The position numbers and the translations under genes were made by a program. This document shows, piece by piece, positions 1-46,170 of a stretch of 64,000 nt of DNA (positions are counted from its first letter, which is position 1; every line of letters starts with the position of its first letter). The notes under the pieces are model-generated. The model saw only the letters and a program-made list of their open reading frames with translations. It searched no databases and was not told the origin of the DNA. The stretch lies in sequence record OR437326.1; one strand, written 5' to 3'. The stretch comes from Escherichia phage iGC_PHA_EC001.

Positions 1-878
1 TCATAAGATGTACTAATCCTATCAGTTGGAGTGGTGGTTTTAATGTACTGCGTATTCTGGATAACAACTTCTACGGGGAAAACAATACTACCTGGTATTA
101 CGGTATTCGCATCCTCTTAGCTGCTGCCGGTACTTTGAAAACACTAGCAATTAAAGGTAATACCTTCACTGGATTGTACCGACCTATCATCGTTAATGGT
201 GTACTTGGGTTTGCGGTTGACGATAACGTATTTCAAACATGTGGCGGGACAACACCACCTTCGTCAGGCGGTGTCATTACCGCTGAAAACCCGTTGTCCA
301 TAGTTCGTCTGTCCGGGTGCAAAAGTGGCACAGCAGCAAATAACGTGTTCCAGGATTGCAATGACCCAGTATGTATATCTGTGGCAAGGGACCAAGTAGA
401 TTCGTCATACTCTTCGTCTGTAGAAGTTAATGGGAACATCTCCCGTGCTTCTGGATGCTTGTTGTCGCTACACTATGCGGACCGTTGCACGGCAAGAGAC
501 AACAAATACATTGGCTTGGCAACAGACTTCTACGGCATCTACGTTGGTGAGACATCCTTAGCTTGTGTTATTGATGGGTTCTATTGCTCGCAGGGTAGCG
601 GTCAGGCTGTGCATGTCAATGGTGGCCCCCGTCACGTAGTCCGAGATGTTGTGGCTTTCGGGACTGACACCACAAAGGCAGCAATTGTCTTCCACAACAC
701 CAACACTGCAAGGTCTATGGACAATGTGGTAATGGGGGGTTACTTGTCTTCTGGATACATCTTGTTATCCGGTACTACCGTGAACTACGTTGGTGATGAA
801 CCAAACATGACTATTGCCAAGCAAGATACGGCAACAGGCGTGAAGGTTGTCTACACGAAAGCGGCAGTGCAAAACTAA
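1..878 (+). CDS. Tail fibre/tailspike-like protein, C-terminal part (5' end lies outside window)
   Basis: Frame is open from nt 3 to the stop at 876-878 (the listed 135 start is an internal TTG); Gly/Thr/Asn-rich composition; heads the tail-fibre block. Confidence 0.4.
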   Translation, partial: IRCTNPISWSGGFNVLRILDNNFYGENNTTWYYGIRILLAAAGTLKTLAIKGNTFTGLYRPIIVNGVLGFAVDDNVFQTCGGTTPPSSGGVITAENPLSIVRLSGCKSGTAANNVFQDCNDPVCISVARDQVDSSYSSSVEVNGNISRASGCLLSLHYADRCTARDNKYIGLATDFYGIYVGETSLACVIDGFYCSQGSGQAVHVNGGPRHVVRDVVAFGTDTTKAAIVFHNTNTARSMDNVVMGGYLSSGYILLSGTTVNYVGDEPNMTIAKQDTATGVKVVYTKAAVQN

Positions 879-938
879 GGAGCACCCAGCCATTTACATT
901 GATTGATGAAAGCGCCAACTGCTGTCACTATTGATAAG

Positions 939-966
939 CACCCCGCTCCGGCGGGGTGTTTTAAAA
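939..966 (+). terminator. Rho-independent terminator
   Basis: GC hairpin CACCCCGC-tccg-GCGGGGTG followed by TTTT, just after the first CDS. Confidence 0.5.
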
Positions 967-987
967 CTACAACATGAGGACTAACCC

Positions 988-1293
988 ATGAATAAGATGT
1001 TCACACAGCCCACTGGCCCAGTGGCTAAACAGGTTAATAAACAAGCCATTGCCCGTAAGTTTGGTGTTAAGCAGAATGAAGTAGTCTACTTTGCTGTAGG
1101 TGCTGTACTAAGTGGATATAAGATTATCTATGATAAGGAGACGCAAAGGGCGTATTCCCTACCTGCTGATATTGCCCCAGGTACTACTGCCATTAGTCTT
1201 AGTGCTACTGTACTTGTGCATTCAGCGGGTTCTGTAGACCTTGGGGAATTAGCTGTATATCGTGATTTAAAAAGTAATGAGAACGCACTATGA
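988..1293 (+). CDS. Hypothetical protein; paralogous to an internal segment of the tailspike at 5617..8670
   Basis: QAIARKFGV..VYFAVGAVLSGYKIIYD..YSLP..SAGSVDLGELAV aligns with tailspike QTIARKYGL..AYATAGQSLTGIKALYD..YTLP..SGGSVDLSALAV. Confidence 0.45.
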   Translation: MNKMFTQPTGPVAKQVNKQAIARKFGVKQNEVVYFAVGAVLSGYKIIYDKETQRAYSLPADIAPGTTAISLSATVLVHSAGSVDLGELAVYRDLKSNENAL

Positions 1294-8731: not shown

Positions 8732-10738
8732 ATGAATTTAACAAGACCTAATAGTGCGATAGCCGATCTGGTAGAAGCTACTTATCGAAAACGTCGCAGC
8801 TTTGAGGCAGGTTTTACATTACGTAATTCCCGTGAAGTGTTGCTGTTAGCAGCAGAAGGGAATTATTACCAATGGAAAGGAACTTTTCCTAAAGTAGTTC
8901 CAGCAAACTCTACGCCAGCCGCCACAGGTGGTATTTCTTCCCTTGCATGGCAAAGTGTTGGGACCGCTGATGATATAGCAATTATCAATGCCAAGTTTAC
9001 GGCAATGCAGCAACAAATTGATGATCTGTCGGAAACAATACCTGAAGCTGGTAAATCGGCTTATCAGATCGCACTTGATAATGGTTTTGTTGGAACAGAA
9101 GCACAATGGCTTGCCTCTTTGAAAGGGGATACTGGTGCTCAACTTAATATTAAAGGATCATTAGCAAGCACTAGTGAACTACCATCCACAGGTAACGTTG
9201 CAGGGGACGGTTATATCGTAGGCGATGTAATCTACGCTTGGGATGGTTCTGTTTGGAAACTTATTTCTTCTCTTGGGCCAGAAGGTAAATCAGCTTACGA
9301 GGTATGGTTGGCAGATGGTAATACAGGATCTGTTTATGATTTTCTTACCTCTATAAAAGGTGATAAAGGTGATGTTGGTCCTACAGGGCCACAGGGAGCA
9401 CCTGGTGTTAACGCCAACGGTTTTGATTATCGTGGGGATTTGCCTTCTACAAGTAACTTACCACAACCTAACTCGGAAAACGTAAGCCAAGCTTATTCTA
9501 TCAATGGTAATCTTTATGTCTCTAACGGGACAGCTTGGGTCAACATGGGTAATATTGTTGGTCCTCAAGGTCCACAAGGTGAGGCAGGTAAAGACGGTCT
9601 TGATGGAACAGATGGAGATGAAGGGAAATCTGCATATCAAAGTTGGCTGGATGCTGGTAATGAAGGGACAGAAGTAGATTTTATTGCCTCACTTAAAGGT
9701 CCAAAAGGAGACAAGGGTGATCAAGGAGAGCGAGGTCCACAAGGTGAACTAGGTCCACAAGGACCAGTGGGTGCAACAGGATCAGGCTTAGAGATTATCG
9801 GGGTTCTGAACAGTGAAGCTGAACTTCCTCCTACTGGAGAAGTAGGCGATGCATATAAAATTAATAATGATTTGTATGTTTGGGTTCAAGATGCTACGGA
9901 ATGGATGAATGTTGGCAGTCTTGGAGGAATATCAATTACAGCTAAAGGTCATGTTCCGAACAGTGAAGCTCTCCCTGTTTACAATAACTATGGTGATGCT
10001 TACTTAACTGAAGACACTAGTAATCTTTACATCTATACTTACGATCAAGACACCAATTCCGCATCTTTTGTTGACATGGGAAGTATTAAAGGTGACAAAG
10101 GTGAGAAGGGTGATCCTGGAACAAACGGAACCAACGGTACTGATGGGACCAACGGTAAGGACGGCGCACAGTGGTTTGTAGCAACAACTAATCCAGTCGC
10201 AGGAGACGGTGTTATCAATGATTACGCCTTCAATACTAACACTGGAGCAGTGTTTAAGAAAACAGATTCTTCTACGTGGACACTTATAGGAACTCTTCCT
10301 AGTATACCAGAAGCCCCTCAAGATGGCTTGACGTATGGTCGTTCTGATGGAAACTGGATCGAAATATCAGGATCAGACCCTACAGAAGCTATAACACCGA
10401 CTAGAGTTACAGCAGGTTTCATGGAACTTGAAACAACTACTGCCAACTCTGGAGCATCTTGGACTCCTTCTGGAACTTCCAATATGTATGTTGTTACAGT
10501 AACTGACGCTCTGACAGTTGGAGCATGGCCTGGTGTCACTGGCTCTACAAAACCTAAAGCGTTTTCAGCAATGATTTATTTGATTCAAGATACAACGGGA
10601 CACACGGTTACACTAGATGCGTCTTATGGAGCACTAAATGATACAGAAATAGCAACTACTGCTAACGCAGTAACAATTTTGCAATTAACGTATCCTGGTG
10701 TGGGTGATATCGTGGACATGGTTGTTGTAACACGATAG
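8732..10738 (+). CDS. Tail fibre protein with collagen-like Gly-X-Y repeats
   Basis: GDKGDVGPTGPQGAPG, GPQGPQGEAGKDGLDGTDGDEG, GPKGDKGDQGERGPQGELGPQGPVGATG, GDKGEKGDPGTNGTNGTDGTNGKDG; three copies of a GKSAY..W(L)..G..V.F(I/L)ASLKG module. Confidence 0.65.
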   Translation: MNLTRPNSAIADLVEATYRKRRSFEAGFTLRNSREVLLLAAEGNYYQWKGTFPKVVPANSTPAATGGISSLAWQSVGTADDIAIINAKFTAMQQQIDDLSETIPEAGKSAYQIALDNGFVGTEAQWLASLKGDTGAQLNIKGSLASTSELPSTGNVAGDGYIVGDVIYAWDGSVWKLISSLGPEGKSAYEVWLADGNTGSVYDFLTSIKGDKGDVGPTGPQGAPGVNANGFDYRGDLPSTSNLPQPNSENVSQAYSINGNLYVSNGTAWVNMGNIVGPQGPQGEAGKDGLDGTDGDEGKSAYQSWLDAGNEGTEVDFIASLKGPKGDKGDQGERGPQGELGPQGPVGATGSGLEIIGVLNSEAELPPTGEVGDAYKINNDLYVWVQDATEWMNVGSLGGISITAKGHVPNSEALPVYNNYGDAYLTEDTSNLYIYTYDQDTNSASFVDMGSIKGDKGEKGDPGTNGTNGTDGTNGKDGAQWFVATTNPVAGDGVINDYAFNTNTGAVFKKTDSSTWTLIGTLPSIPEAPQDGLTYGRSDGNWIEISGSDPTEAITPTRVTAGFMELETTTANSGASWTPSGTSNMYVVTVTDALTVGAWPGVTGSTKPKAFSAMIYLIQDTTGHTVTLDASYGALNDTEIATTANAVTILQLTYPGVGDIVDMVVVTR

Positions 10739-10741
10739 CAG

Positions 10742-10768
10742 AAGCCCCGAAAGGGGCTTTCTTTTTAT
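10742..10768 (+). terminator. Rho-independent terminator
   Basis: AAGCCCC-gaaa-GGGGCTT followed by TCTTTTTAT. Confidence 0.6.
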
Positions 10769-10779
10769 GGAGGGTTTAA

Positions 10780-11814
10780 ATGTTTCCAATTCCAATATTT
10801 ACTATTATGACCAGCACTGGTGTCGTTCCTCTGCCAGCAGGTATTGTTAAAAAAGTAATCACTTTAGATTACCCAGATAATGCTGGTAATTCTAACAGCA
10901 GTTTAGCAATTTTGCTTAATGATGGTAGATTGTTCACTCAAGGCGCAAACCTTTTTGGTGAGATTGCAGATGGAACTCGTAGTGCACGATTCAATAATTT
11001 CCACTTGGCTTCTACTGTAGCAGCGGATGTGTTTACCGCAGATCGTTGTTTTGTTATTAAAACTAACAGTGGGGGATGGCAATATTCAGGATTGACAGCA
11101 GGGTTGGTAGGATCTATAGCAGCAGGTGGTACGGACGCATGTGTAACTACTTGGACCAGCTTTCCATCTGTAATAACAGGGACTATCTCTTTAGCCAATC
11201 TTAAAGAGGTTAAGGGAGGATATAACAACACTCTCTGGTTAATGAATAGTGGTGTTCTTTACGGATCTGGTCAAAACACAGTAGGCAGTTTAGGTGCAAG
11301 TAATACTAACGAAGTTTCTACTCCTCGTCAGATAACAAGTGCAGCAGTTGCTTTTGATGCAGGTTACAACCAATGCTCTTATGTCAACAATGTGGGAACC
11401 TTGCGTGTTTGTGGAGCTAGTAAAGGCTTAGCAGGTAATAATAACACAACAACAGCTTTTGTCAATGCCAAGATATCCGCTACTGAAACAGTGTATGTCA
11501 AAGATTACATCAATACGGTTTCCCAGACAATAGTTGTAGGAGATACCTCCGGTGGCACGGGTACAGTAAACTACTTATATGTTAGATCTAATACAGAAAC
11601 AACCTACACTAAACTGGATACCTTTGCAGCAGGTTTCTCAACATGGAAGTTTCCACCAAGCCGCCACTCTTTTTTCGTTGGGATCAATAATTCCTTGTGG
11701 GCTATTGGTAAGAACTACACTGCAAACTTAGGTTTGGGGTATGATTCTGCGAGCGGAGATCCACTCCAAGTGGAAAACCAGTTAAACCTGAAGGAGTGGG
11801 TTCCTGGGATATAA
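10780..11814 (+). CDS. Hypothetical tail-associated protein
   Basis: 344 aa Gly/Thr/Asn-rich ORF between fibre genes; 19-nt overlap with the next gene. Confidence 0.35.
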   Translation: MFPIPIFTIMTSTGVVPLPAGIVKKVITLDYPDNAGNSNSSLAILLNDGRLFTQGANLFGEIADGTRSARFNNFHLASTVAADVFTADRCFVIKTNSGGWQYSGLTAGLVGSIAAGGTDACVTTWTSFPSVITGTISLANLKEVKGGYNNTLWLMNSGVLYGSGQNTVGSLGASNTNEVSTPRQITSAAVAFDAGYNQCSYVNNVGTLRVCGASKGLAGNNNTTTAFVNAKISATETVYVKDYINTVSQTIVVGDTSGGTGTVNYLYVRSNTETTYTKLDTFAAGFSTWKFPPSRHSFFVGINNSLWAIGKNYTANLGLGYDSASGDPLQVENQLNLKEWVPGI

Positions 11815-13451
11815 ACAAGCTCACAAGCGTTCATACGCTGAATATGGATGTTACTAACCAATTAGGTTATCAAGGAACCTTTTTCGTTTATAATGGAGAT
11901 ATGTATTATTCCGGTATTTGGAAAGATGGGAAAGCCTCGTATCTGTTCAATAGTGGTCTAAACTATAATAAATTCACACCAATAGCAAGCTCCGTGATTA
12001 CGGGTGATATTCTGGCAACTGGTTTAACTACAGATTCTTTAGGAATTTGTATTGTAGGTGGAACTAAACAGTTGACACATTCTGTTAGCCCAGAAGGAGG
12101 TAAACTTTTCAATATTAAATACACTTCTTCTGCCCCTGCAAACATGACAATATCATCTACTGGTTTAATGACTTTCCATGCAGAAGGTGGTTTTGATGCA
12201 GGTATGACAGCCTTAAACGCTGAAGGAACAACTTTATCAGATACCTCTGGAGGATATGCTTCAACATTGAGTGTTTACACCCCTAGCTTATCTGCGATGG
12301 ATGTAGGAACAACACAAACAATGGTAGCAGAAATAACGCCAACAGGAGCAGCAAGCTTACCTGGTATGGTTGTTGAGTATACAACTACAGATCCTAATGT
12401 TGCTACAGTAGATCCTACAACTGGTGTAATAACTGGTGTTGGTGATGGTGGTTGTAGAATTGGTTGCACAGCTACGTATCAAGGTGTTGTTACCGCTTCT
12501 GATAGTTCTTATTTAACGGTGAACGCTGTTGCGGGAAAGGAGTTAGCTCCATCTCCGAGTAGTAGTTTAACGGTTCTAAACGGATATTTCAACCACTCGG
12601 CAGATGGGGCAATCACGTTCCCAATTTTATCGGGTACTGTCACACCAGCTAACTTTGTAGTTAAGGTGGATGACGTTGTAATACCTTCAAATAAAGTAAT
12701 ATTTAGAAATAAAGCTTTCTCTACAGTGGATAGTTATCCAGCAGGAGAATATAGACTGGCTATTGAATTTGCAAGTGCTTCGGTAGTGAATAGTGTTGAT
12801 GTGTCTATGGAAGCAAATCCAGATCTTTTAGAATTATGGGGCGGCAACAGAATTGGTTATTCTACAAGCCCAGCCTCACAATTCTTAAAAGGTTGTGCTA
12901 ACTTAAGACGAATAACTTCTGATTGTTTTAGTAACACATCTTACACCGGAACATCTATAAGTGGTATCTTCTCTGGCTGTACAAGTTTGACAGCTATCCC
13001 TGAAGGATTATTCAGTGATGCTTTATTTCCTTCAATGACAACAATGTCAAGCACGTTTGAAGGTTGTACATCTTTAACATCTATTCCTTCAGATTTATTT
13101 AAGAATCTATCAAAAGTTACAAGATATTCTTACACCTTTAAAGATTGCACCTCTCTTGCAGAAGTTCCAGCAGGAATGTTTGATAATATTCCAACGAAAG
13201 TGACCTCCTTAACAGCTACATTCCAAGGTTGTTTAGCACTTACAGATTTTAATAAAATCTTTAATGACAATCCAGGGTTAACTGTTTGTGGTAAACGTGG
13301 AGCATTATCTTCTTTCTTTAGTGGATGCACAAATCTTACAGGAACAGGAACAACATTAACAAATACATTAGGCGGAGTAGCTAATAGTTACCTATTCAGG
13401 TATTGCACAAAACTTTCTGATTATAATAATATTCCTTCGGGTTATAAATAA
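11796..13451 (+). CDS. Tail fibre/adhesin-like protein with Big_2 Ig-like domain and BspA-type leucine-rich repeats
   Basis: GTG start 7 nt after AAGGAG; Big_2-like TTDPNVATVDPTTGVITGVGDGGCRIGCTA; repeated C-T-S-L-T-x-I-P-x-x-L-F units (CTSLTAIPEGLF, CTSLTSIPSDLF, CTSLAEVPAGMF). Confidence 0.5.
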   Translation: MGSWDINKLTSVHTLNMDVTNQLGYQGTFFVYNGDMYYSGIWKDGKASYLFNSGLNYNKFTPIASSVITGDILATGLTTDSLGICIVGGTKQLTHSVSPEGGKLFNIKYTSSAPANMTISSTGLMTFHAEGGFDAGMTALNAEGTTLSDTSGGYASTLSVYTPSLSAMDVGTTQTMVAEITPTGAASLPGMVVEYTTTDPNVATVDPTTGVITGVGDGGCRIGCTATYQGVVTASDSSYLTVNAVAGKELAPSPSSSLTVLNGYFNHSADGAITFPILSGTVTPANFVVKVDDVVIPSNKVIFRNKAFSTVDSYPAGEYRLAIEFASASVVNSVDVSMEANPDLLELWGGNRIGYSTSPASQFLKGCANLRRITSDCFSNTSYTGTSISGIFSGCTSLTAIPEGLFSDALFPSMTTMSSTFEGCTSLTSIPSDLFKNLSKVTRYSYTFKDCTSLAEVPAGMFDNIPTKVTSLTATFQGCLALTDFNKIFNDNPGLTVCGKRGALSSFFSGCTNLTGTGTTLTNTLGGVANSYLFRYCTKLSDYNNIPSGYK

Positions 13452-26522: not shown

Positions 26523-26539
26523 TCTCCCCCTCCGTTATA

Positions 26540-40940: not shown

Positions 40941-42359
40941 TTATTGTTTGGAGAGGAATTGTCTTCCCATGATCTTACCGTTCTTTACAGCGGTCCCATC
41001 GTGTCCATTATAATCCCAAGTTCCATCAATGTTACGCAAGAAGCTATCACGAACAGTGTAGGCTTTACCGTTCTCTACTTTACTTTCTTCAACAATAATC
41101 GCCATAACAAGCTTATTTTCAATTTCGGTAGTAACCGATTCTTTAATACCCTCTGTAACTTCACGATCATATTGGATATAAACTCGCTCCTCGGTCACTT
41201 GCACGTCTACCACATTTTTAAATGTGTATGTCTGCTGTGTAGTGTAAAGGACACGAACAACACTCTTCTTACCTACTGGCGGCTTCTTACGAGGCTTACG
41301 GTAACGTGGTTTAGGGTTGTTAGTTGGAAGCCAACCAACAATATCCCGCTCATATCCAACATGACCCCAAGTGAAATGCGTAGCCGATCCACTATCCGTA
41401 GTTCCGTCACGAAAGAGAACTTCTACGTGACCACCACAAGGGCGGTGTCCACCATTATTATAGTTGTATTTTGCCGTGCGCGGGAGAATGAAGTATTCTT
41501 TAATCGCCCACTCTTCCAGATTGTCGATATTCCAAGTGAATACTGTTCCCTTAGCAACATCTGTTTGACCATTGTTGAAGCGAACCTGCACGAAATCTTC
41601 TGAAGGCATAACACCTGTGTTCGGCAGATATTCAAATGCAGTATCTTCCGCTACAAACTGTTCTTCCTCTTGCTCCTCAATACTTGGCACAGGCGCAGCT
41701 TCATCGTATTTCGCAGCAAACATATTTTTAAATTCTTGGGCCGTGACTTGTACAAGGCCGCGATCACCAGTAGCAGCAGAGTGTGGGCGTGGTAAATCCC
41801 CAACTTCAATATGCATTGCATCTAAACCTGCTTGACGATCAAAGAAGATAACCTTGCGGAATTGTTTATCTTTATATTGTGGCAGTTCATACATACTTGG
41901 GTCGATTGTCTTCAAACGTTCAGCATCTTCTGGCTTCCAGAAGCTTTTACCTGTTGCAAATCTAAAGTCTACCAGTAGTTTAACAACATCTCCTAATGAT
42001 AAACTATCTGCATCTACGAAAACGTCTTCGATTCCCAATAACCCTGATTTCTTAAGAATCAGATCTAACATGTAACCTCCTGTGGTTTGTTCTGCGTCTG
42101 GATAACGATCAACACTGGTGCTGGTTACACCGTTTATTTCACCAGTGGAGGCATTGTAGGAAATATATGGGAAGGTCATATCGTTCATTGCAAAATCACC
42201 TGAACAGGTTGGATCATCTTCTCCCTCCCAGCCATACACCTTCACAATACCTTCACACAATTTGTCATACACACCAGCGCGACGTGCTGCTTCAGCAACT
42301 TCCTGTTTACGGGCAAATTTATTAATCATGATTCCTCCTGTTAATTGCCATAGATGCAC
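40941..42359 (-). CDS. Hypothetical protein
   Basis: 472-aa ORF; true start may be the internal MINKFARKQ; Lys/Arg/Pro-rich internal segment. Confidence 0.35.
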   Translation of the reverse strand: MHLWQLTGGIMINKFARKQEVAEAARRAGVYDKLCEGIVKVYGWEGEDDPTCSGDFAMNDMTFPYISYNASTGEINGVTSTSVDRYPDAEQTTGGYMLDLILKKSGLLGIEDVFVDADSLSLGDVVKLLVDFRFATGKSFWKPEDAERLKTIDPSMYELPQYKDKQFRKVIFFDRQAGLDAMHIEVGDLPRPHSAATGDRGLVQVTAQEFKNMFAAKYDEAAPVPSIEEQEEEQFVAEDTAFEYLPNTGVMPSEDFVQVRFNNGQTDVAKGTVFTWNIDNLEEWAIKEYFILPRTAKYNYNNGGHRPCGGHVEVLFRDGTTDSGSATHFTWGHVGYERDIVGWLPTNNPKPRYRKPRKKPPVGKKSVVRVLYTTQQTYTFKNVVDVQVTEERVYIQYDREVTEGIKESVTTEIENKLVMAIIVEESKVENGKAYTVRDSFLRNIDGTWDYNGHDGTAVKNGKIMGRQFLSKQ

Positions 42360-45611: not shown

Positions 45612-45623
45612 AAAATTCTCCTC

Positions 45624-46166
45624 TTATTTTGTGTTGACCTTATTTCGCATTAACCTGTGGGATACAGAGTTGCGAGATCTGTTTAGAACCTTACCAATCC
45701 CTGCATGACTATACCCTTCACTATTTAACTTTTCAAGAATCTGGTCTTCTTCCTCTGTCCAGTAGCGGCGTTTAGCTTGTCTATCATCCACACCATACAT
45801 GATAGGTTGCTTTACATCCATCACTTTTAGCAATCTGACAGCCTCTTCCGCTTTCTCTTTTTTGAAACGGAGATAAGGGATTAAATTCTCAAGCAATCTT
45901 ATCACACTTTCTCTGCTGCTAACATTGATATTATACATCAAATTATCATATTTTTCAGCCCAAGCTACGCGCGATGTGAAAGAGACAGTATATCCATAAC
46001 TTTCCAACTCTTTAGCCAAATCGGTCATTTCTTCTGCCGATCTCTCGTGTTGTGTAAGGTTTACTGTGTAGGAGTCTGAAGTCTCCCTGTTTCTGCTTAT
46101 AATAGATCCATCACAATCTATGCAACCTGCGTAGTAAGCATAAAACAGTTGTTCTTTTATGTCCAC
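45624..46166 (-). CDS. LAGLIDADG-like homing endonuclease with C-terminal helix-turn-helix (tentative)
   Basis: N-terminal YYAGCIDCDGSI resembles LAGLIDADG; C-terminal RRYWTEEEDQIL..HRLMR resembles a Myb/HTH module. Confidence 0.35.
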   Translation of the reverse strand: MDIKEQLFYAYYAGCIDCDGSIISRNRETSDSYTVNLTQHERSAEEMTDLAKELESYGYTVSFTSRVAWAEKYDNLMYNINVSSRESVIRLLENLIPYLRFKKEKAEEAVRLLKVMDVKQPIMYGVDDRQAKRRYWTEEEDQILEKLNSEGYSHAGIGKVLNRSRNSVSHRLMRNKVNTK

Positions 46167-46170
46167 AATA

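What the first reader, a model, noticed from the sequence alone, without database searches (positions are those of the whole stretch)
11796..13451. Tail protein combining a Big_2 Ig-like domain with BspA-type leucine-rich repeats
BspA-type LRRs (CTSLTxIPxxLF units) are typical of bacterial surface adhesins and uncommon in phage fibres. Coupled to a Big_2 domain and placed last in the fibre cluster, this is a candidate receptor-binding or host-range determinant with an atypical fold, possibly acquired from a bacterial adhesin.
Basis: partly seen in the sequence, partly recalled or inferred. Interest (0 to 1): 0.45.

Follow-up and report, generated by a model that had tools for sequence, protein, structure and literature searches.

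The report
Frameshift-split phage tail adhesin gene
The flagged ORF is the back two-thirds of a known phAPEC8-type coliphage "tail protein" gene (propeller, Ig-like domains, leucine-rich-repeat tip) that one missing G has cut in two in this phage; the Ig and repeat domains are real, but the gene is probably inactive here.

Summary

The ORF is not a whole gene. In all 64 related Phapecoctavirus records the span 10780-13451 is one 890-aa CDS (PHROG 11922, called "TfpM1"). It encodes an RCC1-like propeller, two Ig-like domains, a β-sandwich and the LRR. This window comes from Escherichia phage iGC_PHA_EC001 and has lost one G (GGG to GG at 11772-11773). That splits the gene into a 344-aa fragment and a C-terminal fragment with no usable ribosome-binding site. 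The deletion is almost certainly real: Illumina coverage was 368x, and an independent re-assembly of the same reads shows it too.

Relatives swap the C-terminal cassette after a conserved junction. The three alleles are this LRR, a GTA-head-spike-fibre-like domain and a canonical DUF285 domain. A Klebsiella P2-like phage carries Big_2 plus LRR_5 on a baseplate gpI protein.

Best reading: an accessory, exchangeable adhesin or host-range protein of the tail. It is probably knocked out in this viable phage. Virion location and ligand are untested.

The parts
10741..10760 (+). Terminator-like hairpin between the 668-aa fibre gene and the start of the split gene
   Evidence: Consensus scan, 8-bp stem with 5 G-C pairs followed by a T-run.
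10769..10782 (+). True translation start of the gene: Shine-Dalgarno GGAGGG (10769-10774), a 5-nt spacer, then ATG 10780
   Evidence: Read from the sequence. It is the same start as the 890-aa CDS in EF1-1 and ESCO5.
10780..11771 (+). Native-frame part encoding the RCC1-like β-propeller (full-length aa 1-331)
   Evidence: Pfam RCC1 scores 28.6 bits against a 21.7 cut-off, and WD40_RLD gives E=4.6e-12. PHROG 11922 profile positions 1-320 match. 99% identical to aa 1-331 of P0001. Foldseek matches UVR8, RPGR and HERC2 RCC1-like domains at E about 1e-9.
11772..11773 (+). Frameshift site: the G-run is GG here and GGG in every relative (1-nt deletion)
   Evidence: Alignments. All 64 of 64 phage records carry the extra base. 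A Logan re-assembly of the same reads shows the same deletion.
11773..11814 (+). Out-of-frame tail of the upstream fragment (ENQLNLKEWVPGI) and its TAA stop at 11812-11814
   Evidence: P0121.
11772..12005 (+). Native downstream frame, full-length aa 332-409: a linker and possibly the last propeller blade. It contains the mechanical GTG 'start' at 11796 and the depositors' ATG at 11844, neither with a usable SD
   Evidence: The AF2 model places strands at aa 348-377, but pLDDT is low (35-59) for 312-402.
12006..12530 (+). Two Ig-like (Big_2) domains, full-length aa 410-584 (ORF aa 71-245)
   Evidence: Pfam Big_2 E=3.3e-11 with two stretches. AF2 pLDDT is about 90. This module is shared at 94-95% identity with the alternative-allele proteins P0015-P0017 (72-79% for P0018-P0020).
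12531..12884 (+). β-sandwich domain (ORF aa 246-363), which begins the exchangeable C-terminal cassette
   Evidence: AF2 pLDDT 93 for the cassette. The cassette junction ...ASDSSYLxVNAV... is. Only weak Ig-like or β-sandwich Foldseek hits.
12885..13448 (+). Seven-unit LRR solenoid of the BspA/TpLRR-like, DUF285-related type (ORF aa 364-551)
13449..13451 (+). Stop codon
13453..13476 (.). Bidirectional intrinsic-terminator hairpin shared with the convergent SSB gene

Best explanation
The finding is the 3' 62% of one gene (10780-13451) of the phAPEC8-like myovirus Escherichia phage iGC_PHA_EC001. In relatives this gene encodes an 890-aa protein annotated as a tail protein (PHROG 11922, 'TfpM1').

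The intact protein has four parts:
- an N-terminal RCC1-like β-propeller;
- two Big_2 Ig-like domains;
- a β-sandwich;
- a C-terminal seven-repeat LRR solenoid of the BspA/TpLRR-DUF285 kind.

Inferred mechanism. The protein is probably a monomeric accessory adhesin at the periphery of the multi-fibre baseplate. The Ig domains would act as a spacer arm, and the exchangeable C-terminal cassette (β-sandwich plus LRR) as the ligand-binding tip that tunes host range. The propeller end is the candidate docking site to the virion.

Shown for this genome. A private 1-nt deletion (GGG to GG at 11772-11773) shifts the frame. It yields a 344-aa propeller fragment and a downstream ORF with no usable ribosome-binding site.

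Inferred for this genome. The adhesin is probably knocked out. The phage is still viable and lytic on its isolation host, so the protein would be dispensable there.
For: Split gene:
- PHROG 11922 is matched at profile positions 1-320 by the upstream ORF and 328-867 by the finding's ORF.
- EF1-1 and ESCO5 have a single 2,673-nt CDS against 2,672 nt here, with one gap at about 11772.
- All 64 phage records have the extra base.

The deletion is real:
- It is the only isolated 1-nt indel inside a CDS across 40 kb aligned at 98.5% identity.
- The genome was sequenced on Illumina at 368x and Pilon-polished.
- A Logan re-assembly of SRR24776555 carries the same deletion.
- The strong SD sits only at ATG 10780.

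Domains:
- Pfam and PHROG hits.
- AF2 models with pLDDT 80.5 (full length) and 93.3 (C-terminal cassette).

Adhesin and host-range role:
- Three C-terminal alleles follow a conserved junction: this LRR, an NF048003 GTA-spike-fibre-like domain (E=2.6e-20), and canonical DUF285 (E about 1e-42).
- GenBank records split about 33 to about 31 between the LRR allele and the alternative allele.
- The neighbouring colanidase tailspike is nearly invariant across the same phages.
- Klebsiella phage gp35 combines Tail_P2_I, Big_2 and LRR_5, so this domain pair occurs on a baseplate protein elsewhere.
- The gene lies in the tail-fibre cluster.

Dispensability:
- Justusliebigvirus lacks the gene (PMC12695924).
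- Other genomes carry independent breaks or in-frame deletions of it.
Against: - No proteomic, microscopy or genetic evidence places this protein in the virion.
- It has no recognisable tail-anchor domain such as Tail_spike_N, unlike its neighbours.
- The ligand is unknown.
- A 58%-identical stand-alone 494-aa Ig+LRR gene with no RCC1 module exists in another phage. The downstream fragment here could therefore retain function if it is translated.
- Breakage of this gene in GenBank (2 of 60 listed records) is not clearly more frequent than for the neighbouring tailspike (1 of 60).
- The AF2 model is poor for residues 312-402, so where the propeller ends is uncertain.
Confidence: 0.6

Rival explanations
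1. The gene is intact in the real phage, and the missing G is a sequencing or assembly error in a short homopolymer cluster.
For: The change is a single base in a GGGAAAACC run. All 64 relatives have GGG. Short homopolymers are classic error sites.
Against: The genome comes from Illumina MiSeq at 368x with Pilon polishing. An independent re-assembly of the same run gives the same sequence. No other CDS-breaking 1-nt indel appears in 40 kb. Both assemblies use the same reads, so a systematic read error is not formally excluded.
Confidence: 0.08
2. The split is tolerated. The downstream Ig+LRR fragment (535-551 aa) is still made, by termination-reinitiation or weak internal initiation. It would then work on its own or together with the propeller fragment as a two-subunit protein.
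For: The upstream stop (11812-11814) lies between GTG 11796 and ATG 11844, so coupling is geometrically possible. A relative at 58% identity encodes a stand-alone 494-aa Ig+LRR protein with its own ATG and no RCC1 module. An independent metagenome contig is broken 6 nt away, giving the same two-ORF layout.
Against: The AAGGAG sequence abuts GTG 11796 with no spacer, and ATG 11844 has no SD. The break may fall inside the last propeller blade (low confidence). 61 of 64 GenBank records keep one ORF.
Confidence: 0.15
3. The two ORFs are joined by programmed -1 ribosomal frameshifting or transcriptional slippage.
For: The downstream frame is -1 relative to the upstream frame, and the overlap contains an A4 run.
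Against: The overlap between the in-frame stop at 11742 and the stop at 11812 has no X XXY YYZ heptamer in the window. The arrangement is private to this genome, and relatives encode a plain single ORF. A4 is too short for efficient transcriptional slippage (established knowledge).
Confidence: 0.03
4. The intact protein is a virion adhesin that does not recognise the bacterial host receptor. It would bind something else, such as mucus or epithelial glycans or non-host particles, as proposed for Ig-like decoration proteins. Alternatively it is not a structural protein at all.
For: The architecture is typical of monomeric adhesins, not trimeric fibres. It has no tail-anchor domain. The closest LRR relatives are gut Bacteroidales surface proteins with BACON or fimbrillin modules. 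The gene is dispensable for lytic growth.
Against: The gene is embedded in the tail-fibre operon, directly after two Tail_spike_N-bearing proteins. Allele swapping includes a GTA head-spike-fibre domain, a type I recall as capsule-binding; this is from memory and was not checked here. The same Big_2+LRR_5 pair is fused to baseplate gpI in a Klebsiella phage.
Confidence: 0.14

Closest known systems
PHROG 11922, the 'TfpM1' 890/891-aa tail protein of Phapecoctavirus and 'Wecvirus' (e.g. YP_009986504 in phage tuntematon, YP_009787159 in ESCO5)
   Same: It is the same gene. The two window ORFs together are 99% identical to it. Position is the same: last in the fibre cluster, before the SSB gene.
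   Different: Here a 1-nt deletion splits it into 344-aa and 535/551-aa ORFs. Published work names it only by database similarity, with no domain analysis (PMC12695924).
BspA/TpLRR-type LRR surface proteins (Pfam LRR_5; structures 4fs7, 4h09, 6mlx)
   Different: The window sequence scores only 13.6 bits against the 27.7-bit LRR_5 threshold. Its repeat period is 26-32 aa with a conserved Cys (F-x-G-C-x-x-L). It has only 7 repeats. It sits on a phage protein rather than a bacterial surface protein.
DUF285 / 'PARCEL' repeat lipoproteins (PF03382, TIGR02167)
   Same: A related repeat from the same broad LRR-like group. Sister alleles of this phage protein (P0022, P0024) carry canonical DUF285 at E about 1e-42 at the same position. 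NCBIfam gives a weak PARCEL-repeat hit.
   Different: The window copy is below the DUF285 threshold (13.8 against 25 bits). It lacks the canonical W-D/N-V-S-x-V-T-x-M motif visible in P0022 and P0024.
Klebsiella phage ST16-OXA48phi5.4 gp35 (Peduoviridae 'tail protein I')
   Same: A phage tail or baseplate protein that carries Big_2 followed by a BspA-type LRR. It is 32% identical over the LRR.
   Different: It is anchored by a P2 gpI baseplate domain instead of an RCC1-like propeller. Its LRR array is longer (7-8 matching places). It belongs to a temperate P2-like phage.
Multi-RBP 'Swiss army knife' adsorption apparatus of phi92, rV5 and Ackermannviridae phages
   Same: The same phage lineage, and the same logic of several co-encoded receptor-binding proteins in one locus. 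The neighbours carry Tail_spike_N domains.
   Different: This protein has no Tail_spike_N domain and no trimeric fibre or spike features. It is absent from phi92-like Justusliebigvirus.
Lambda side-tail-fibre gene stf, inactivated by a frameshift in laboratory lambda (cited from memory: Hendrix and Duda 1992)
   Same: An accessory tail adhesin gene split into two ORFs by a single-base frameshift in an otherwise viable phage.
   Different: The proteins are unrelated, since stf encodes a trimeric fibre. This is an analogy only and was not tested here.

Membership tests
Pfam Big_2 (PF02368) | Score above the curated gathering threshold (22.8 bits) | tested here: met
   43.4 bits, E=3.3e-11, ORF aa 167-226 plus a second stretch. 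AF2 shows two Ig-like β-sandwiches with pLDDT about 90.
Pfam LRR_5 (BspA-type LRR, PF13306) | Score above the curated gathering threshold (27.7 bits) | tested here: not met
   13.6 bits, E=0.062. No Pfam family is reported for the isolated cassette (part A).
Pfam LRR_5 (BspA-type LRR, PF13306) | Homology to bona fide LRR_5 proteins, and structural similarity to solved LRR_5/TpLRR proteins | tested here: met
Pfam DUF285 / PARCEL repeat (PF03382) | Score above the gathering threshold (25 bits) | tested here: not met
   13.8 bits, E=0.048. The sister alleles P0022 and P0024 do meet it, at 145 and 138 bits.
Leucine-rich-repeat fold (general) | Tandem repeats of 20-30 aa forming a solenoid, each contributing one short β-strand to a parallel sheet | tested here: met
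PHROG 11922 'tail protein' | Full-length match to the 870-position profile | tested here: inconclusive
   The finding's ORF covers only profile positions 328-867 (E=1.9e-206). The upstream ORF covers 1-320 (E=3e-189). Together they make up one member, interrupted by a frameshift.
RCC1-like β-propeller (for the whole gene) | RCC1 repeat above threshold, and a propeller fold | tested here: met
   PF00415 scores 28.6 bits against 21.7 on the upstream ORF. Foldseek matches UVR8, RPGR, HERC2 and RCC1 at E=1e-9 to 1e-7. The C-terminal boundary of the propeller is uncertain.
Canonical trimeric tail fibre or tailspike of this phage group | N-terminal Tail_spike_N anchor, collagen or coiled-coil shaft, or β-helix | tested here: not met
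   None of these is detected in either ORF or in P0001. The neighbouring genes do have Tail_spike_N and collagen repeats.
Virion structural protein | Detection in purified virions by mass spectrometry, electron microscopy or cryo-EM | not testable with these tools
   No proteomic or structural report was found for this protein. The phi92 paper is not in the held library, and phi92-like phages lack the gene.
Programmed -1 ribosomal frameshift | A slippery X XXY YYZ heptamer in the overlap, and conservation of the two-frame layout | tested here: not met
   No heptamer lies in window 11742-11814. The layout is private to this genome: 0 of 64 relatives share it.

The most novel reading that the evidence does not exclude
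The intact 890-aa protein could represent a non-trimeric class of myovirus host-recognition accessory. In this reading it is a monomeric arm of propeller, Ig domains and LRR that docks through its RCC1-like propeller onto another fibre or the baseplate. Its BspA-like LRR cassette, shared with gut Bacteroidales adhesins, would bind a protein or glycan ligand. That ligand might not be on the E. coli host at all and could be, for example, a mucosal component. Short homopolymer indels in the GGGAAAACC cluster at the propeller/arm boundary would then recurrently switch the adhesin off.
Probability: 0.15. Interest if true: 0.6.

Novelty: new variant of a known kind. Interest (0 to 1): 0.35.

Why it matters
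Phapecoctavirus phages have some of the broadest host ranges among coliphages and are used in therapeutic and biocontrol cocktails. Their receptors, and the roles of their many fibre genes, are still unknown (PMC10844046, PMC8594841).

This gene is the allele-swapping member of an otherwise conserved stretch of the locus. About half of the sequenced phages carry the LRR cassette and half carry a GTA-spike-fibre-like cassette. That makes it a concrete and testable host-range candidate.

iGC_PHA_EC001 appears to be a natural knock-out, so comparison with its near-identical intact relatives is ready-made. There is also a practical point: the two 'tail protein' CDSs in the GenBank record should be read as one disrupted gene.

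Tried and rejected
- Programmed frameshifting: rejected. There is no slippery heptamer and the layout is not conserved.
- General sequencing sloppiness: rejected. The other isolated 1-nt indels relative to EF1-1 are intergenic, and coverage was 368x.
- 'This gene is broken unusually often': not supported in GenBank. It is split in 2 of 60 listed records, against 1 of 60 for the neighbouring colanidase. Read-level assemblies do show at least five further break points.
- The 216-aa ORF upstream of the stand-alone homologue in L004 is not an RCC1 remnant and has no Pfam hit.
- Literature searches found nothing on an LRR or RCC1 phage tail protein, virion proteomics for phAPEC8-like phages, or receptor-binding proteins of Stephanstirmvirinae that concerns this protein. 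The phi92 structural paper is not held.
- No RNA family or tRNA lies on either strand of the locus. The short minus-strand ORFs (60-97 aa) inside the gene have no support.
- Promoter-like sites are not above the shuffled expectation, 15 against 12.8.
Full report
**1. What is at the coordinates**

A 551-aa ORF with a GTG start occupies 11796-13451 on the + strand.
- Pfam finds Big_2 well above threshold (E=3.3e-11; 43.4 bits against 22.8).
- LRR_5 (13.6 bits against 27.7) and DUF285 (13.8 against 25) are only sub-threshold hints over aa 389-485.
- The repeat is nonetheless real. Seven F-x-G-C-x-x-L units start at aa 364, 392, 421, 448, 476, 508 and 534, spaced 26-32 residues apart. Shuffling the protein gives 0.04 such units on average and never more than 2.

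**2. The ORF is a fragment of a larger gene**

- PHROG 11922 ('tail protein', 870 positions) is matched at positions 328-867 by this ORF and at positions 1-320 by the preceding ORF, 10780-11814.
- In Escherichia phages EF1-1 and ESCO5 the same span is a single 2,673-nt CDS of 890 aa. The window span 10780-13451 is 2,672 nt.
- Alignment places one gap in a G-run: relatives read CAAGTGGGAAAACC and the window reads CAAGTGGAAAACC, at 11772-11773.
- An 81-nt query across the site hits 64 phage records. All of them span 82 nt and none is 100% identical. The deletion is therefore private to this genome.
- GTG 11796 corresponds to an internal Val codon (…KPEGVGSW…).
- The real start is ATG 10780, with a GGAGGG Shine-Dalgarno sequence 5 nt upstream, just after a terminator-like hairpin.
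- GTG 11796 has AAGGAG directly abutting it. The next in-frame ATG (11844, the start chosen by the depositors) has no SD.

**3. The deletion is very probably real**

- An exact-sequence look-up identifies the window as Escherichia phage iGC_PHA_EC001. Its depositors annotated two 'tail protein' CDSs of 344 aa (WMI32687.1) and 535 aa (WMI32688.1).
- The genome announcement reports Illumina MiSeq sequencing at 368x, SPAdes assembly, Pilon polishing, reads SRR24776555 and accession OR437326 (PMC10793346).
- The Logan re-assembly of the same run carries the identical deletion.
- Across 40 kb aligned to EF1-1 at 98.5% identity, this is the only isolated 1-nt indel inside a CDS. The others, at 26526, 29961 and 36241, are intergenic.
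- A sequencing error is therefore unlikely, though both assemblies use the same reads.
- Programmed frameshifting is also unlikely. The overlap has no X XXY YYZ heptamer, and no relative shares the layout.

**4. Architecture of the intact protein**

An AlphaFold2 model of the 99%-identical P0001 (890 aa; mean pLDDT 80.5) shows these parts:

| Residues | Feature | Confidence |
|---|---|---|
| 1 to about 310 | β-propeller | mostly high, with dips at 207-229 and 289-295 |
| 312-402 | linker, possibly the last blade | low (pLDDT 35-59) |
| 410-580 | two Ig-like domains | about 90 |
| 590-690 | β-sandwich | 81-92 |
| 700-890 | repeat domain | 83-96 |

- Foldseek matches the N-terminal part to RCC1-like propellers (UVR8, RPGR, HERC2, RCC1) at E=1e-9 to 1e-7. 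Pfam RCC1 passes threshold on the upstream ORF.
- The C-terminal cassette (window aa 246-551) modelled alone reaches pLDDT 93.3 and pTM 0.89, with a 3-residue β-strand about every 28 residues.
- Foldseek against the PDB was weak for the cassette (best E=0.02), although nearly all hits to the repeat part were LRR ectodomains.
- A PDB sequence search also finds designed and natural LRR proteins (4psj at E=1.4e-6).

**5. Relatives and modularity**

A search of 5.8 billion proteins, mapped by BLAST, shows several classes:
- Full-length 890-aa orthologues at 54-99% identity.
- Proteins of 888-891 aa that share the propeller (78-99%) and the Ig module (72-95%) but carry an unrelated C-terminal stretch of about 305 aa (P0015-P0020). 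That stretch matches NCBIfam NF048003, 'phage head spike fiber domain', at E=2.6e-20.
- Versions with canonical DUF285 at the C-terminus, at E about 1e-42 (P0022, P0024).
- All three cassettes follow a conserved junction, …ASDSSYLxVNAV….
- In GenBank, 33 records carry the LRR allele and about 31 carry the alternative allele, including the type phage phAPEC8.
- The neighbouring colanidase tailspike is at least 99.3% identical in 59 of the 60 listed records (98.8% in the other).
- Non-phage hits all map to aa 360-551, at 30-40% identity with multiple offset alignments.
- Of the 70 members of alignment A2, 28 carry LRR_5, 17 DUF285, 15 BACON and 5 a fimbrillin-like domain. Source names include Tannerella, Bacteroidales and Culturomica.
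- The LRR-coding segment has lower GC (0.342; GC3 0.19) than the rest of the gene (0.40-0.41). This is weak support for a foreign origin.

**6. Is this LRR type unusual in phages, and is it found in tails?**

- tblastn of the 197-aa LRR against 50,697 phage records finds 60 records. Of these, 35 are phAPEC8-like or Wec-like phages and 25 are distant.
- In Klebsiella phage ST16-OXA48phi5.4 (Peduoviridae) the match lies in a 1,008-aa 'tail protein I'. That protein is Tail_P2_I (E=3.6e-38) plus Big_2, LRR_5 (41 bits, above threshold) and DUF285.
- The Big_2 plus BspA-type-LRR pairing has therefore been used independently on a baseplate protein. This is the best indirect support for a tail-adhesin role.

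**7. Dispensability and breakage**

- A 2025 paper calls the protein 'TfpM1'. It reports the gene in Phapecoctavirus and the proposed 'Wecvirus' and its absence from Justusliebigvirus (phi92-like). The paper gives no domain analysis (PMC12695924).
- Other genomes carry independent lesions: Shigella phage SF1-1 at about aa 104, Ro121lw at aa 475 with about 127 extra nt, and read-level assemblies with native sequence ending at aa 117, 124, 248, 299 and 334.
- In-frame variants also exist. P0123 and P0124 lack the two Ig domains (aa 422-578). P0009 fuses the Tail_spike_N anchor of the 668-aa fibre to the last 324 aa of this protein.
- The aa-334 break is a +1 C insertion only 6 nt from the window's deletion, in the same GGGAAAACC cluster.
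- In GenBank the breakage rate (2 of 60) is not clearly above that of the neighbouring tailspike (1 of 60). I do not claim enrichment.
- A 58%-identical stand-alone 494-aa Ig+LRR gene with its own ATG and no RCC1 module exists in another phage. The propeller is therefore not always needed in cis.

**8. Interpretation**

Shown:
- The gene is split by a genuine-looking private frameshift.
- The domain architecture and the LRR fold.
- Cassette exchange among relatives.
- The rarity of this LRR type in phages.
- A baseplate-anchored precedent for the domain pair.

Inferred:
- The intact protein is a virion-attached, probably monomeric accessory adhesin. Its C-terminal cassette binds the ligand and modulates host range.
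- In iGC_PHA_EC001 the protein is inactivated without loss of viability on E. coli ST2089.

Unknown:
- Virion location, docking partner and ligand.
- Whether the downstream fragment is translated at all.

No proteomic or structural study of this protein was found.

**9. Verdict**

The family is already catalogued and abundant: the 90% cluster has 134 members. This is not a new system. It is an unusual, uncharacterised variant of a modular phage receptor-binding or adhesin protein, seen here as a likely natural knock-out. Interest is moderate to low (0.35).

Noticed in passing
L010 3461-3552 (ENA ERZ27280524 contig k141_593158), compared with window 11772-11779: An independent metagenome contig has a +1 C insertion (CC to CCC) only 6 nt from the window's -1 G deletion. 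Both fall in the same GGGAAAACC cluster and split the gene at the same domain boundary (335-aa and 570-aa ORFs). This may be a small indel hotspot or may be coincidence.
   Followed up: partly
L005 6001-7191 (Logan SRR10359460), protein P0009: An in-frame deletion of about 3.5 kb fuses the Tail_spike_N anchor (aa 1-74) of the 668-aa fibre to the last 324 aa (β-sandwich plus LRR) of this protein. The junction lies at a short similar motif (QxVxTAxD). The cluster has 11 member sequences.
   Followed up: partly
Proteins P0123 and P0124 (727 aa; Logan/ENA contigs up to 147 kb): In-frame variants of the gene that lack exactly the two Ig-like domains (aa 422-578) but keep the propeller and the LRR cassette.
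   Followed up: no
L004 3929-6076 (Logan SRR17660019, 128-kb contig): A more distant relative encodes the Ig+β-sandwich+LRR part as a stand-alone 494-aa gene. It is preceded by an unrelated 216-aa ORF with no Pfam hit, which might be an adaptor protein.
   Followed up: partly
window 10093-10106 (inside the 668-aa fibre gene, 8732-10738): The collagen-like Gly-X-Y region is 18 nt (6 aa) shorter than in EF1-1. This is repeat-number variation in the neighbouring fibre.
   Followed up: no
window 26526, 29961, 36241 and 30961: Relative to EF1-1 there are homopolymer length differences in intergenic spacers (C5 vs C4, C4 vs C5, T5 vs T4) and a 6-nt CTC-repeat expansion.
   Followed up: no
window 1-1036, 41309-42334 and 45623-46168: These stretches do not align to the closest genome, EF1-1, by megablast. 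The first lies in or near a variable tailspike gene.
   Followed up: no
Phage records: Records labelled Campylobacter phage B15, Acinetobacter phage vB_AbaM_ABPW7 and Klebsiella phage ZCKP1 are 97-99% identical to E. coli Phapecoctavirus at this locus. Pseudomonas phage PsgM04F is a more distant match (about 81% protein identity). The host labels look doubtful or indicate polyvalence.
   Followed up: no
Intact relatives, e.g. L001 5974-5981: The intact gene contains an in-frame G GGA AAA heptamer (X XXY YYZ form) exactly where the window lost a G. A -1 slip there would stop after 4 codons and give a propeller-only product. There is no evidence that this is used.
   Followed up: no
window about 13,500 and about 50,000: GC skew changes sign at both points, which marks switches of transcription direction between the + strand structural module and the - strand replication module.
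   Followed up: no
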